Positions 20,114-23,654 of a stretch of 26,963 nt of DNA are shown in pieces. The position numbers were made by a program, and so were the translations under genes. Source of the DNA: Lentisphaeria bacterium (lineage in GTDB: Bacteria > Verrucomicrobiota > Lentisphaeria > Victivallales > UBA1829); the NCBI GenBank assembly GCA_017623265.1, contig JAGAPM010000108.1, positions 1 through 26,963 of the forward strand. The letters are read 5' to 3'. The stretch's first letter is position 1, and the number at the start of each line of letters is the position of its first letter. Below the pieces are notes generated by a model, which saw only the letters and a program-made list of their open reading frames with translations, searched no databases and was not told where the DNA came from.

Positions 20114-21092
20114 CCAGACGGGGCGCCGCGATCACAGCCACATCATCCGATCTCGAAACACCGCCGGAGATGCGGCGGAACAACTCTTCCAGCCCCAATT
20201 CTGCTCCGGTCTGCGCCCCCAGATCAATGGATGCCGGACGGGGGTAAAGTCCTGCCAGATATTCGGGTGTACGATTGCAGGAGATCACAGTCGGCAATGT
20301 TTTTCCGTTTTTGAGAAATACCCGGTATAAAAAGGCAGTCAACCGGTCTTCCGGCGAAAAGATTCCATCCGCTCCGGTCAGCTCCGGCAACGCCTTTTCC
20401 AATGCGTTTTCCAATGAAGAATCGTTGCATTCTTCCAATATTTCTCCTTGAGGCAGAATAAGTTCCACCGTCCGGCAATCCGCTTCCGGCATCCGGTTGA
20501 AATATTCAAAGCGGAACCCTTCCAGACGGGCGGGGAATCCGGGATTGCAGGAAAAAATATCAAGACAGACAGGGCGCCGTATCTGTTTTCCGATCAGGTA
20601 TCGGGCAGCGATCCTTCCGGCAAAATCGTTTCCCATCAGCACAGAAGGCTCGCCACCGCTTGTCCGGTAACTGTTCAGCCAGACATGAGGGATATGTTCC
20701 AGCACTTCCCCCACATTTCCGGGGTCGTGTCCCACCAGCAGCACTCCCGCAAGATCCCCATGAAAATGACGGGACTCCAGTTCCCGTGGCTGGATCTCCG
20801 GAGAAAGTAGCACAAGATCCCACTTCCGCGGCAGTTTTGATGCAATCACATGAAGTTTGTTCATCAACACCCGGGGATCCGATTCACTGCCCGGCAGCAG
20901 AAGAAGCCCGATCTTCCCCCCGGTCCGCGCCGCCGCACGGCTGCCCGGAGCATCCGGACCAAGCTGTTTCAATATCTTCAGAATCTTTTCCCGTTTTTCC
21001 GGCGCAACACTGCCGGTCCCACTCAAAACCCGGGAAACAGTCGCCGGGGAAACATTTGCCATTTCAGCGATAGTGCGAACAGTTTGTTTCAT
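20100..21092 (-). CDS. LacI-family transcriptional regulator, 330 aa
   Basis: TVRTIAEMANVSPATVSRVL HTH, hinge REKILKI, periplasmic-binding-protein-like effector domain (RLEGF, IFSPED, ASIDLG). Start set at ATG 21092 (AAGGAG). Confidence 0.92.
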   Translation of the reverse strand: MKQTVRTIAEMANVSPATVSRVLSGTGSVAPEKREKILKILKQLGPDAPGSRAAARTGGKIGLLLLPGSESDPRVLMNKLHVIASKLPRKWDLVLLSPEIQPRELESRHFHGDLAGVLLVGHDPGNVGEVLEHIPHVWLNSYRTSGGEPSVLMGNDFAGRIAARYLIGKQIRRPVCLDIFSCNPGFPARLEGFRFEYFNRMPEADCRTVELILPQGEILEECNDSSLENALEKALPELTGADGIFSPEDRLTAFLYRVFLKNGKTLPTVISCNRTPEYLAGLYPRPASIDLGAQTGAELGLEELFRRISGGVSRSDDVAVIAAPRLVNGE

Positions 21093-21146: not shown

Positions 21147-21236
21147 GTCTTTGTTTCACAAAATTCAACAGAATTTCTGGAAAAAGCGGCAACGCAGCTG
21201 TAAAGTATGATCACAAATACAGAATTGGAGGCTGCA

Positions 21237-22094
21237 ATGAAAAAAGATATTCACTGGCACGGGATCATTGTCCCGGCTGTTACCCCGATGAAAGATCCTT
21301 ACACCGTGGATCTGACCGCCGTACAGAAACATTTTGATTACATGATCGCCGGCGGTGTAAACGGTATTTTTATCCTTGGAACAACCGGCGAGGGACCGGC
21401 GATCGGTCATGCGGAACAACGGAAATTCATCCGGGAATCCGTGAGAGCCGTGGCTGGGCGTGTACCGTTGCTGGTGGGGATCAGTGAGGCGTCCGGCACC
21501 GACACATTGGAAGTCGGGAAGTTCGCTTTGGAGGCAGGCGCAGACGGACTGGTTGCCGCCATTCCCTGTTATCTGCCGCCCTCGGATGATGATATTTACA
21601 GTTTTTACAAAACGCTGTCTGAGACCTTCCCCGGGAAAGTGTTCATCTACAATATGCCGGGGATGTGCAAAGTGAACCTGAAGCCGGAACTGGTGGTGGA
21701 ACTGCTGAAACTGGAGGGTATTGCCGGATACAAGGACAGCTCCGGCGTGATCGAAGACCTGAAGTATGTGGTGAAACGGACCGCAAAACCGTGCTTCGTG
21801 GGACCGGAACATCTGACCATGGATGCCATGAGCCTCGGCGCGGCAGGAGGCGTAAACGGCGGAGCCAACCTCTACCCGGAACTGTTTGCAAATCTTATAA
21901 AAGCAGTGGATAACAACGACATTTCTGCAAAAGATGCGGCACAGAATGAGATCATGTCCATCCAGAAGATCTACGGACCGGTCCCCAGCGCCAACAGCTG
22001 TATCTGCGGACTGAAATTGGAGCTGGCACGCAAGGGACTGATGCAGAATATCACCGCTTTCCCCCTGCAGCCGTTGAAAACCCCACTGTATTGA
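21237..22094 (+). CDS. DapA/NanA-superfamily class I aldolase (probably a sugar-acid aldolase/lyase, not DHDPS), 285 aa
   Basis: GIIVPAVTP, GTTGEG, YNMP, Schiff-base GYKDSSG, GGVNGGAN; start ATG 21237 with GGAGG. Confidence 0.9.
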   Translation: MKKDIHWHGIIVPAVTPMKDPYTVDLTAVQKHFDYMIAGGVNGIFILGTTGEGPAIGHAEQRKFIRESVRAVAGRVPLLVGISEASGTDTLEVGKFALEAGADGLVAAIPCYLPPSDDDIYSFYKTLSETFPGKVFIYNMPGMCKVNLKPELVVELLKLEGIAGYKDSSGVIEDLKYVVKRTAKPCFVGPEHLTMDAMSLGAAGGVNGGANLYPELFANLIKAVDNNDISAKDAAQNEIMSIQKIYGPVPSANSCICGLKLELARKGLMQNITAFPLQPLKTPLY

Positions 22095-22116
22095 TGATGT
22101 CGCATGGGCGCAGACC

Positions 22117-22157
22117 GCCGGTACAGCAGCAGCGCTGCTGTGCCGGCATCTTTTTTT
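22117..22157 (+). terminator. Rho-independent terminator of the aldolase gene
   Basis: 14-bp GC-rich stem GCCGGTACAGCAGC/GCTGCTGTGCCGGC followed by ATC-T7. Confidence 0.7.
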
Positions 22158-22195
22158 CAGCGGCGGCAGAGCGGGGCAAAGCCCGCCCGCCGCTG

Positions 22196-22232
22196 AAAAA
22201 AAGAAAGCCCCGCCACGGCGCGTGGCGGGGCT
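22196..22232 (-). terminator. Rho-independent terminator of the minus-strand GH-like/esterase operon
   Basis: 12-bp stem AGCCCCGCCACG/CGTGGCGGGGCT followed on the minus strand by TTC-T7. Confidence 0.75.
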
Positions 22233-22259
22233 GGTCTGCGCCCGTGGGGGCGTATCAGC

Positions 22260-23654
22260 TCAGAACGGGGCTGTTTTCGGTTCGTAGACTGTTTCATCTC
22301 CTCTACCGATGCCGCGGGTCAGGACGCTCCGTTTGAAGATGCGTCCATCTGCCGCCTTGGCGTACAGGGTATCGGGTGCATCGGGATCGAACCCGACATC
22401 CACGCACGGCACGTTGCCGGGCAGCGGCAGGATCGTATTATTTTCGCCCTGCTGGGATGTTGTCTGGATCCCGCATTCGGTAGCGGCGTACAGGCGATCG
22501 TACGCATCGATACAGATCCCCGGCGCACCGATGACGGCGGCATCGTCTTTCATATGCAGATGAGCGTGGGCATACATGGAATCCAAAGAGCCGTCCGGAC
22601 GGATGGCGAACGCATAGACAAAACGTCGTTCCGGGGTTGCGGCGTACAATCTCCATTTGTCACTGGACAAAGTCAGATCCGACACATTTCCGGGCAGTTC
22701 TGCCATCACCTTGCCATCCCGCAGGATCTGCCTGCCGCAAGCGGTGTAGGGACAGGGTGTTTTTTCCGGCATATCTCTGCACTCTGTCACTTCCCACGGT
22801 TTTTCAATGGAAACGATGTCCGCGATCCGGGGCGGATAGCCCATATTGCCCACGGGCACGGTCTGCCAGTCCTTCCAGAGAAAGCGCAGCGATTCCTCCT
22901 GAATGGTGTGATCGCCCGCACTGACGCCGTGTTTGCCATTCTGAAAAACGATAAACCGGTATTCATACCCGGCATATTTCATTGCAGAATCGGCAGACAG
23001 GGCTTCCAGATACCAGTTGCCGGAAGAGTTTTCCATGTCATCCGTCCCGACCGTCATGAAACAGCGGATAAGGCGGGGTTCATACTTGCGCATGAGGACC
23101 GTCATGGAGTCGCCGCCGCGGAAACTGGAGAAGGTGGGGCTGTTGATGAGACAGCGCCGGAAAAAGTCATTCCGTTCCCAGCAGGCGTTCCACGCACAGA
23201 TCCCGCCGGAACTGCATCCATTGATCTGGTGCATATCCGGAGACGGGTCAACCGTATAACCGGGGAGCAGCTCTGCCATGATGTCCGGCAGCAGTTCATC
23301 AATAAGCAGATCGGCATAGCCGCTGCCCAGCCCATCGTATTCCGGCGACCGGACGGTACGGTCAAAGCCGCCCTCCAGCGACGCCTTGAAAAAGGCAGCC
23401 GTCACCCCGATGTAGATCATGGGCGGGATGGTACCTTCTTTGCTGAGGCGTTCGATGATCGCCGGATCGGCTTCCCGGGGGCCATCCATGGTGAACAGAA
23501 CGGCACAGGGGGAGCCGGGCTTGACGGTTGTCGGCACATACACATCCACTTTCCGGTTGGTGCCGGATTTGACTTTTTCCGAATAATAGATGAATGTGAT
23601 CCATTCGCCGCCCAAGTCGTGTGGGTTGCGGACAATCTCTCTGATTCTGCTCAT
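22260..23654 (-). CDS. Alpha/beta-hydrolase (Fes/enterochelin-esterase-like) fused to a partial SMP-30/gluconolactonase propeller, 464 aa
   Basis: VYVP, FTMDG, RSPEYD, nucleophile elbow GCSSGGICA, candidate catalytic His in NGKHG. C-terminal LTLSSDKWRLYAA and GICIDAYDRLYAA resemble SMP-30 blades. SD AAGGAG. Confidence 0.85.
   Translation of the reverse strand: MSRIREIVRNPHDLGGEWITFIYYSEKVKSGTNRKVDVYVPTTVKPGSPCAVLFTMDGPREADPAIIERLSKEGTIPPMIYIGVTAAFFKASLEGGFDRTVRSPEYDGLGSGYADLLIDELLPDIMAELLPGYTVDPSPDMHQINGCSSGGICAWNACWERNDFFRRCLINSPTFSSFRGGDSMTVLMRKYEPRLIRCFMTVGTDDMENSSGNWYLEALSADSAMKYAGYEYRFIVFQNGKHGVSAGDHTIQEESLRFLWKDWQTVPVGNMGYPPRIADIVSIEKPWEVTECRDMPEKTPCPYTACGRQILRDGKVMAELPGNVSDLTLSSDKWRLYAATPERRFVYAFAIRPDGSLDSMYAHAHLHMKDDAAVIGAPGICIDAYDRLYAATECGIQTTSQQGENNTILPLPGNVPCVDVGFDPDAPDTLYAKAADGRIFKRSVLTRGIGRGDETVYEPKTAPF

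What the first reader, a model, noticed from the sequence alone, without database searches (positions are those of the whole stretch)
22103..22246. Near-perfect 144-nt four-way-junction element embedding two back-to-back terminators
It fills almost the whole 165-nt gap between convergent genes: outer P1 14 bp, P2 14 bp, P3 17 bp perfect (plus a 5-bp cap), P4 12 bp perfect, with junction linkers of only 0, 2, 2 and 0 nt. P2+U7 and P4+U7 explain termination on each strand, but not the 14-bp terminal inverted repeat or the GC core of P3. The P3 layout (T7-stem-A7) is the reverse of an ordinary bidirectional terminator. The only two imperfections in P1 and P2 (22105/22244 and 22122/22142) are both G-U on the plus strand, hinting at selection on an RNA. 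Inference: a MITE/REP-like non-autonomous element, a DNA cruciform, or an undescribed structured RNA motif.
Basis: partly seen in the sequence, partly recalled or inferred. Interest (0 to 1): 0.7.

Follow-up and report, generated by a model that had tools for sequence, protein, structure and literature searches.

The report
Self-closing four-way terminator palindrome family
The 144-base four-armed fold between two converging genes is real and is one of about 40 copies per genome of an undescribed palindromic gene-end element, found only in one genus of gut Lentisphaerae, that houses two face-to-face transcription terminators and keeps its shape while its sequence drifts.

Summary
Window 22103-22246 folds on either strand into a near-perfect four-way junction (RNA -125 kcal/mol, z -12.9). 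It fills the gap between a DHDPS-family gene and an esterase gene.

It is not unique. A structure-only scan found 34 such elements in this 2-Mb, 73%-complete Lentisphaerae MAG, and about 41 in a near-complete congener. None were found in 11 other genera of the family or in 77 other genera of the phylum.

- **Location:** copies sit 6-35 nt from stop codons, and 63% lie between convergent genes.
- **Sequence:** copies share architecture but little sequence. Of 63 modelled pairs, 62 covary, and 96.8% of cells are paired.
- **Strand symmetry:** G-U pairs are about 1% with no strand bias, so the stems are Watson-Crick palindromes on both strands.
- **Mobility:** there are no near-identical copies, target duplications, REP tags or linked transposase. 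Most copies are syntenic between species.

Best reading: a lineage-specific composite terminator and insulator module that evolves in place. It resembles REP/BIME elements in lifestyle but is not a member of that family.

This scan has noted the same kind of element before, in another gut Lentisphaerae genome. It has also noted similar four-way repeats in Verrucomicrobiota.

The parts
21207..22094 (+). Upstream convergent gene, dihydrodipicolinate-synthase family (295 aa). Its stop codon lies 8 nt before the element.
   Evidence: ORF list; Pfam PF00701, E 5.9e-45; self-trained gene caller.
22103..22116 (.). P1 5' arm, the outer closing stem, with core GGGCGCAGACC. It pairs with 22233-22246.
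   Evidence: Folds. All 14 P1 pairs covary across the family.
22117..22147 (+). P2: a 14-bp GC-rich hairpin with a 3-nt loop. It is the terminator hairpin for the plus-strand gene.
   Evidence: Fold; terminator scan.
22151..22157 (+). T7 tract. It is the U-tract of the P2 terminator and also the outer 5' part of the P3 stem.
   Evidence: Sequence; terminator scan. These are the most conserved columns of the family, with U-A in 38-42 of 42 rows.
22149..22204 (.). P3: the central hairpin. T7/A7 pair around a GC core (CAGCGGCGG..CCGCCGCTG), followed by an internal loop and a 5-bp cap. It acts as a spacer or clamp between the two terminators.
   Evidence: Fold; 17 of 18 pairs covary.
22196..22202 (-). 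A7 tract, which reads as the U-tract of the minus-strand terminator (P4 read on the minus strand).
   Evidence: Sequence; terminator scan.
22206..22232 (-). P4: a 12-bp perfect hairpin. It is the terminator hairpin for the minus-strand esterase gene.
   Evidence: Folds; terminator scan.
22233..22246 (.). P1 3' arm.
   Evidence: Folds.
22260..23654 (-). Downstream convergent gene, a putative esterase (464 aa). Its stop codon lies 13 nt after the element.
   Evidence: ORF list; Pfam PF00756; gene caller.

Best explanation
The element is one copy of a genus-restricted family of composite palindromic gene-end modules, with about 40 copies per genome. Each module is an outer stem (P1, 9-28 bp, often continuing imperfectly almost to the stop codons) that closes three abutting hairpins. 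In about half of the copies, including this one, the two lateral hairpins are face-to-face intrinsic terminators. P2 plus U7 ends the plus-strand gene. P4, read on the other strand, plus U7 ends the minus-strand gene. The two U tracts pair with each other around a GC core to form P3. In the other copies an ordinary A-tract-stem-T-tract bidirectional terminator sits inside one of the three hairpins.

Shown here: the fold, the family, its position at gene 3' ends and its strong preference for convergent junctions, very strong covariation, equal fit to both strands, Watson-Crick-only stems, conservation at the same sites between species, and the absence of transposition hallmarks.

Inferred: each converging polymerase terminates at its own proximal terminator. 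P1 and P3 are extra dyad symmetries that work identically from either side. They could fold read-through RNA of either strand into one very stable junction that blocks 3' exonucleases or marks the RNA for duplex-specific cleavage. Alternatively they could act as DNA. Either way the effect would be to insulate the two convergent transcription units. The flawless stems are kept by selection, by hairpin-templated (quasipalindrome) correction, or by both.
For: Fold and significance.

Family size: 34 elements in G000 by a structure-only scan and about 41 in G003. A model built from this single element hits all 20 fetched copies on both strands at 32-70 bits.

Covariation: 96.8% of cells are paired against 54.7% in shuffles. 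62 of 63 pairs change on both sides. The score is 0.774 against 0.07-0.11 for slid partners.

Gene context: 17 of 27 elements with both neighbours called lie between convergent genes, against 15% of all adjacent gene pairs (Fisher p 8e-9). Only 1 lies in a divergent gap. The distance to the stop codon is mostly 6-35 nt.

Terminator content: both lateral hairpins with T tracts are called terminator-like. Non-canonical copies carry A7-stem-T7 terminators inside P2, P3 or P4.

Both-strand symmetry: G-U is 8 sense against 8 antisense in 911 terminator-hairpin pairs, and 3 in 545 P1 pairs.

Evolution in place: 18 of 39 G003 elements tested have the element at the same site in G000. Between these species, stem nucleotides changed 6.5%, loops 43% and coding flanks about 12%, with 19 compensatory double changes.

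Distribution: found only in genus g1, in 4 of its 5 genomes, out of 12 genera of the family and 78 genera of the phylum sample.

Distinct from ordinary terminators: about 180 lone intergenic terminators exist. Their upstream flanks are AT-rich and only 3% carry the P1-arm motif, against 30% inside elements.
Against: No transcript ends were measured, because the RNA-library data available are contigs and cannot show ends.

If the proximal terminators are efficient, the two P1 arms are rarely on one RNA, so an RNA role for P1 depends on read-through that has not been shown.

Ordinary terminators are plentiful in the same genome, so the extra helices are not needed for termination as such.

Partial sequence similarity between some copies (75-86% over 34-103 nt), restriction to one genus, and different sites in the more distant congeners G002 and G004 would also fit an old burst of a mobile element.

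The covariation may owe something to neutral hairpin-templated correction rather than to selection. Also, the alignment behind the counts was fitted to the structure.
Confidence: 0.55

Rival explanations
1. A REP/REPIN- or MITE-like selfish mobile palindrome. It spread in the ancestor of the genus, tends to land at or replace terminators, and is now mostly immobile. Its terminators are incidental or only tolerated.
For: The family is multi-copy and genus-restricted. P1 acts as a terminal inverted repeat with a loosely shared core, GGCGCRG(N)CC. Some copies are detectably similar. Elements in G002 and G004 lie at junctions that are not syntenic with G000. At one site the element is replaced by other DNA, and at another only P1+P2 is present. 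Contigs often break at elements. A Y1 (IS200/RAYT-superfamily) transposase exists in the genus.
Against: No target-site duplications were found. 22 of 34 copies have no BLAST hit to any other copy, and the best hit is 86% over 43 nt. There are no GTAG/CGTC tags. The Y1 transposase loci carry no family element. No donor copy of the P3+P4 module exists anywhere in the genus. Most sites are conserved between species that differ by about 12% in coding DNA. A truly REP-like 46-nt hairpin in G002 shows what recent mobility looks like: more than 35 near-identical copies.
Confidence: 0.2
2. A DNA-level four-way (cruciform-like) structure that a junction- or hairpin-binding protein recognises by shape. 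Candidate partners are a topoisomerase, a nucleoid protein or a recombinase. It would serve as a supercoil-handling or recombination/integration site at convergent junctions.
For: The stems are Watson-Crick on both strands with no G-U bias. P1 covaries as strongly as the terminator hairpins, although efficient termination would keep its arms on separate RNAs. The DNA-parameter fold is the same junction, z -13.3. In G003 foreign DNA is joined inside the element, with a 20-nt direct repeat (the P1 arm plus the start of P2) at both junctions, as at an attachment site.
Against: Positive supercoiling between converging polymerases disfavours cruciform extrusion (established knowledge, not tested here). 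No integrase or other recognisable protein was found in the 4 kb beside the G003 junction. Only one such junction was seen. SbcD, part of the hairpin-cleaving nuclease, is present in all five genomes of the genus.
Confidence: 0.15
3. A strand-specific structured non-coding or cis-regulatory RNA motif.
For: The predicted RNA fold is very stable and the covariation is abundant.
Against: The model scores both strands about equally for every copy. G-U pairs are rare and unbiased. Internal terminators would cut the RNA before the fold is complete. Loops and junction residues are the fastest-evolving parts, with 43% changed. There is no Rfam match. Distribution is limited to one genus.
Confidence: 0.05

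Closest known systems
REP / BIME elements of Enterobacteria and Pseudomonas (GTAG- and CGTC-tagged REPs; PMC3733652). [quoted passage not shown]
   Same: Both are extragenic, GC-rich, palindromic and multi-copy. Both lie downstream of genes and preferentially between convergent or co-directional genes. A plausible role in termination and 3'-end protection is shared, and both are lineage-specific.
   Different: REPs are 20-40 bp single hairpins with a conserved consensus and an unpaired GTAG or CGTC tag, and they are linked to RAYT transposases. Here the unit is a 110-170 nt four-way junction, its sequence is not conserved between copies, it has no tag, and no RAYT is linked.
Bidirectional and clustered intrinsic terminators (A-tract-hairpin-U-tract terminators at convergent genes; the multi-hairpin classes of terminator catalogues, from my own knowledge).
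   Same: Both have GC hairpins followed by U tracts a few nucleotides after the stop codons, serving both converging genes.
   Different: Two separate hairpins face each other and their U tracts pair (T7-stem-A7, the reverse of the usual layout). The whole is closed by a covarying outer stem, which no terminator model requires.
Correia/NEMIS elements of Neisseria and ERIC/IRU elements of enterobacteria (from my own knowledge; ERIC is mentioned in PMC3733652).
   Same: These are 100-170 nt intergenic inverted-repeat elements that are co-transcribed with neighbouring genes, fold in the mRNA and can carry terminator activity.
   Different: Those fold as one long hairpin, have conserved sequence and, for Correia elements, a TA target duplication. 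Here there are four helices, diverged sequence and no duplication.
Integron attC sites (from my own knowledge).
   Same: Both are recognisable by a conserved fold rather than by sequence, sit at gene 3' ends, and are palindromes that vary in length.
   Different: attC is a single imperfect hairpin with conserved R/L boxes and extrahelical bases, occurs in arrays beside an integrase and acts on one strand only. None of that is seen here.

Membership tests
REP/BIME (RAYT-associated repetitive extragenic palindromes) | Unit is a 20-40 bp single palindromic hairpin with a family consensus sequence | tested here: not met
   Units are 110-289 nt (median 138) four-way junctions. 22 of 34 copies have no BLAST-detectable similarity to any other copy.
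REP/BIME (RAYT-associated repetitive extragenic palindromes) | Unpaired GTAG or CGTC tag at one end (PMC3733652) | tested here: not met
   The flanks of all 34 copies were listed and no recurring GTAG or CGTC appears next to P1.
REP/BIME (RAYT-associated repetitive extragenic palindromes) | Cognate RAYT (Y1 transposase) gene flanked by the repeats | tested here: not met
   PF01797 is full-length only in G004, truncated in G003 and not found in G000. Model R2 finds no family element beside these genes: at most 26 bits, in DNA of 41% GC. No matching inverted repeats were found.
REP/BIME (RAYT-associated repetitive extragenic palindromes) | Extragenic, downstream of genes, enriched between convergent and co-directional genes | tested here: met
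   17 convergent, 9 tandem and 1 divergent out of 27. Convergent gaps are enriched about 10-fold, p 8e-9.
MITE (miniature inverted-repeat transposable element) | Terminal inverted repeats | tested here: met
   P1 is 9-28 bp in every copy. However, the tips are the least conserved part and the arms covary, which is unlike transposase-binding ends.
MITE (miniature inverted-repeat transposable element) | Target-site duplication flanking the element | tested here: not met
   0 of 34 copies have a direct repeat of 4 nt or more at the junctions. Two have 2-3 nt, which is chance level.
MITE (miniature inverted-repeat transposable element) | Near-identical copies and clean occupied/empty sites between close relatives | tested here: not met
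   The best pairwise similarity is 86% over 43 nt. Of 39 G003 sites tested, none is a clean empty site in G000. One is replaced by other DNA and one lacks only P3+P4.
MITE (miniature inverted-repeat transposable element) | A related autonomous insertion sequence with the same ends | tested here: inconclusive
   Only Y1 transposases were searched. Other transposase families were not screened.
Intrinsic (Rho-independent) terminator | GC-rich hairpin immediately followed by a U tract, downstream of a stop codon | tested here: met
   P2+T7 on the plus strand and P4+T7 on the minus strand were called by the consensus scan. They begin 23 nt (P2) and 28 nt (P4) after the stop codons.
Intrinsic (Rho-independent) terminator | Transcript 3' ends at the U tract | not testable with these tools
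   Only assembled contigs of RNA libraries were available, and these cannot show ends.
Any Rfam 15 RNA family | Score at or above the family's gathering threshold | tested here: not met
   The best hit is 25 bits against a gathering score of 63, to a microRNA model. There were 0 hits at gathering score for 19 other copies.
Integron attC site | Single imperfect hairpin with R/L boxes, in cassette arrays next to an integron integrase | tested here: not met
   The fold has four helices, the copies are dispersed singly at convergent junctions, and there are no arrays. An integrase was not specifically searched for.

The most novel reading that the evidence does not exclude
The family is a shape-defined DNA element. 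A perfect four-way junction is maintained on both strands independently of sequence, by hairpin-templated correction and/or a junction-binding protein. It marks convergent gene boundaries and is used as a structure-specific recombination or integration site, as tRNA genes and attC sites are. The 20-nt direct repeat that flanks foreign DNA inside the orthologous element of the sister species would be the first trace of this.
Probability: 0.12. Interest if true: 0.8.

Novelty: new variant of a known kind. Interest (0 to 1): 0.6.

Why it matters
If the reading holds, this genus has built a standard, symmetrical end-piece for convergent genes. Two terminators are clamped by two further helices, and the pairing has been kept through heavy sequence turnover. 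This is a natural design for insulating head-on transcription units and would be directly testable as a synthetic-biology part.

It also gives a clean case of strong covariation that does not indicate a strand-specific RNA. That matters for anyone who uses covariation to discover RNA genes.

There are practical consequences as well. The elements break short-read assemblies, since many contigs start or end in them, and they generate spurious ORFs.

Together with similar four-way repeats that this scan has noted in Verrucomicrobiota, the family suggests that branched palindromic repeats are a recurrent, undescribed feature of PVC-group genomes.

Tried and rejected
1. A loose IUPAC pattern (P1 core, T6, A6) scanned over genome contigs returned 120 loci, almost all chance matches. 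Only one (L126, the sister species) held a true element.
2. A MAFFT alignment of 20 copies could not keep the stems in register. It was replaced by an Infernal alignment seeded from this element and its ortholog.
3. RAYT link: Y1 transposase loci have no family element nearby. The Rfam scan of those loci found only a tRNA.
4. Origin by inverted duplication around P3: P2 and P4 of one element are no more alike than those of different elements, 0.479 against 0.489.
5. Copy-paste origin of the P3+P4 module that distinguishes G003 from G000 at one site: no donor was found in G000 or in any of four congeners. Outgroups have a different gene order there, so the direction of change is unresolved.
6. 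Loss of the hairpin nuclease SbcCD as the reason palindromes flourish: sbcD is present in all five genomes of the genus.
7. P1 arm as a sequence signal of all terminators: lone terminators lack it.
8. RNA evidence: three metatranscriptome runs hold parts of the locus, but only as contigs. Two contigs overlap inside the P3 palindrome, none shows an end, and depth per contig cannot rank regions. Nothing can be concluded about termination.
9. The four ORFs next to the G003 junction have no Pfam or PHROG family.
10. The lone GGGCGCAGACC at 20208-20218 lies inside a coding region and is at chance level.

Full report
**1. The observation**

Window 22103-22246 lies in the 165-nt gap between two converging genes. 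One is a dihydrodipicolinate-synthase-family gene (21207-22094, +). The other is a putative esterase gene (22260-23654, -).

- P1, 14 bp.
- P2, 14 bp with a 3-nt loop.
- P3, 18 bp (T7/A7 plus a GC core), followed by an internal loop and a 5-bp cap.
- P4, 12 bp.
- Linkers of 0/1/1/0 nt.

The RNA energy is -125 kcal/mol (z -12.9; no shuffle of 200 is as good). The minus strand folds the same way (-114.9, z -11.5), and so does single-stranded DNA (-78.5, z -13.3). A consensus scan calls P2+T7 a terminator on the plus strand and P4+T7 a terminator on the minus strand. Rfam 15 has no match.

**2. It is a family**

BLAST of the element against its own genome found only partial hits of 77-83%. G000 is a 2.0-Mb MAG of 354 contigs, 73% complete. 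Two of those partial hits (contigs C143 and C191) had the same four-helix layout with different stem sequences.

I then ran a structure-only scan: a 9-mer inverted repeat 90-300 nt apart, folded, with an outer stem closing exactly three hairpins, at -0.55 kcal/nt or better. It gave 34 elements in G000. Their median energy density is -0.80 kcal/nt. The same scan gave 0 hits in 1 Mb of genome-composition random sequence. In 0.4 Mb of 65%-GC random sequence it gave nothing better than -0.64 kcal/nt.

Over 59 elements from four genomes the medians are: length 138 nt, P1 15 bp, P2 12 bp, P3 20 bp, P4 13 bp, linkers 0/1/1/0 nt.

Seventeen of the 34 G000 elements have the canonical layout: P2, T5-8, P3 core, A5-8, P4. 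The other 17 keep the P1 core and three hairpins. Most of them carry an ordinary A-tract-stem-T-tract terminator inside P2, P3 or P4.

**3. Covariation and symmetry**

A covariance model built from this element and its ortholog alone hit all 20 fetched copies, plus one from the sister species. It hit them on both strands, at 32-70 bits.

On the resulting alignment:
- 96.8% of cells are paired, against 54.7% in shuffles.
- 62 of 63 pairs show changes on both sides.
- The covariation score is 0.774, against 0.07-0.11 when partners are slid by 1-3 columns.
- P1 covaries as fully as the terminator hairpins.

One caution applies: this alignment was fitted to the structure.

G-U pairs are very rare and unbiased. 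In 36 canonical elements the terminator hairpins have 8 G-U in the sense orientation and 8 in the antisense orientation, among 911 pairs. P1 has 3 among 545 pairs. The stems are therefore Watson-Crick palindromes on both strands. In the ortholog, the P1 T.G of the window is a plain C-G pair.

**4. Where the copies lie**

I called genes with a self-trained codon model. Of the 27 elements with both neighbours called, 17 lie between convergent genes, 9 between tandem genes and 1 between divergent genes. Convergent pairs are 15% of all adjacent pairs, so the enrichment is about 10-fold (Fisher p 8e-9). Seventeen of the 83 convergent gaps of 100 nt or more hold an element. The element usually starts 6-35 nt from a stop codon.

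The genome also has about 180 ordinary intergenic terminators outside elements. Their upstream flanks are AT-rich and only 3% carry the P1-arm motif, against 30% inside elements. The four-way modules are therefore a distinct class, not the default terminator of this genome.

**5. Organism and distribution**

The flanking DHDPS protein is 92% identical to one in 'Lentisphaerae bacterium isolate SIG77', which is G003, a member of the same genus. DNA runs that hold the locus come from pig, goat and other animal gut samples.

The broader model R2 matched only in genus g1, where it matched 4 of the 5 genomes:
- G000.
- G003, about 41 elements.
- G004, about 13 elements.
- G002, about 8 elements.
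- G001, none (84% complete).

It found none in 55 genomes of 11 other genera of the family, nor in 77 other genera of the phylum sample. Only a limited number of candidates per genome is scored in these searches, so this means 'not found in those searched'.

**6. Mobile or resident?**

None of the classical mobility hallmarks were met.
- No target-site duplications and no GTAG/CGTC tags were found.
- 22 of 34 copies have no detectable similarity to any other copy. The best similarity is 86% over 43 nt.
- A Y1 transposase exists in the genus, but no family element lies beside it.

By contrast, a different 46-nt hairpin in G002 occurs in more than 35 near-identical copies. That is what recent mobility looks like.

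Between G003 and G000, whose coding flanks differ by about 12%, 18 of the 39 G003 elements tested sit at the same site in G000. Most of the rest fall at G000 contig ends. In 14 orthologous pairs:
- Stem nucleotides changed 6.5% and unpaired nucleotides 43%.
- 19 pairs changed on both sides to another Watson-Crick pair. Five double changes broke the pair.
- Single changes were 13 to G.T, 13 to A.C and 16 to other mismatches.

At deeper divergence the sites differ. Seven elements from G002 and G004 have flanks that map to G000 contigs without elements. The orthologs of the window's two genes in G001, G002 and G004 have no element within the 1.5 kb of flanking DNA fetched.

Two sites show turnover. 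At one, G003 has an element where G000 has a plain terminator plus unrelated DNA. At the other, G000 has a single perfect hairpin equal to P1+P2, while G003 has the full junction. The 87-88 nt difference is exactly P3+P4. That module has no donor copy anywhere in the genus. Outgroups have a different gene order there, so the direction of the change is unknown.

**7. Reading**

*Shown:* this is a genus-specific, abundant, structurally constrained, two-fold-symmetric palindromic module at gene 3' ends, with terminator signals built in. Its copies are long-term residents.

*Inferred:* the lateral hairpins terminate the two converging genes. P1 and P3, which are under the same pairing constraint, act identically from either side. 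They may do so on read-through RNA, as a stable cap or a duplex-specific cleavage target. Alternatively they may act as DNA. In either case they would insulate the two units.

The perfection of the stems may owe something to hairpin-templated correction during replication. I reached this idea independently, and earlier notes of this scan raise it too.

I put 0.55 on this reading. The alternatives are:
- 0.20 on an old, now mostly immobile REP/MITE-like selfish element.
- 0.15 on a shape-recognised DNA site.
- 0.05 on a strand-specific RNA.

**8. Comparison with what is known**

In lifestyle the closest family is REP/BIME. Those elements are extragenic and sit between convergent or tandem genes. 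PMC3733652 lists transcription termination and mRNA stabilisation among their hypothesised roles, and a recent preprint reports a dual terminator/stabiliser action for one model REP (bioRxiv 10.64898/2026.03.23.713779). This family nevertheless fails every structural and genetic criterion of REP membership that I could test.

It also extends the idea of bidirectional terminators, with a reversed T7-stem-A7 core and a closing stem that no terminator model requires. Three literature searches found no description of such elements.

This scan has noted the same kind of module in another gut Lentisphaerae genome. It has also noted shorter four-way palindromic repeats in Puniceicoccales and in a gut Clostridia genome. 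Those are unchecked notes. My model did not detect relatives outside the genus.

Noticed in passing
L017 2306-2325 (G003 contig C7) and L010 2472-2491, minus strand (G003 contig C25): In the sister species the DHDPS gene is followed by only the first 20 nt of the element (CACGGGCGCAGACCGCCGGT: the P1 arm plus the start of P2), then by unrelated AT-rich DNA. The intact element, beginning with the same 20 nt, sits on another contig next to the esterase gene and after a different gene. A 20-nt direct repeat at both junctions looks like the core of an attachment site for an island integrated into the element. The four ORFs beside the junction have no Pfam or PHROG family.
   Followed up: partly
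G000 contig C281 about 2290-2355, against L208 1201-1348 (G003:C25:282352-282499): At the same site with 93%-identical flanks, G000 has one perfect long hairpin (P1 and P2 stacked) and G003 has the full four-way element. The 87-88 nt difference is exactly P3+P4. The direction of the change is unresolved, and no donor copy exists.
   Followed up: yes
G002, many contigs (for example C53:37519-37564, C74:676-721): More than 35 near-identical copies of a 46-nt hairpin each score 29 bits to Rfam Acido-Lenti-1 (RF01687, gathering score 37). This is a separate, apparently recently mobile REP-like family. It has few copies in G000 and G003 and none in G004.
   Followed up: no
L202 810-1286, minus strand (G004:C26), and L203 (G003:C1): G004 has a full-length IS200-type Y1 transposase (158 aa, 140 bits to PF01797) and G003 has a truncated one beside a tRNA gene. 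The surrounding DNA is 41% GC with its own small hairpins and is unrelated to the four-way family.
   Followed up: partly
G000 contigs C18, C72, C186, C191, C238, C312, C330 and others (first 50-250 nt): Many contigs of this MAG start or end inside or next to a four-way element. Several G003 elements map to pairs of G000 contig ends. The elements evidently break short-read assembly.
   Followed up: partly
L045 5605-5792 (Saprospiraceae MAG JAEUUP010000165.1): An unrelated 188-nt structure: a 21-bp AT-rich closing stem around a small hairpin, a perfect hairpin of about 32 bp, and another small hairpin. It was found by chance among the pattern hits.
   Followed up: no
L017 2560-2666 (end of G003 contig C7): A run of more than 25 AGCA repeats ends the contig just beyond the junction described above.
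   Followed up: no
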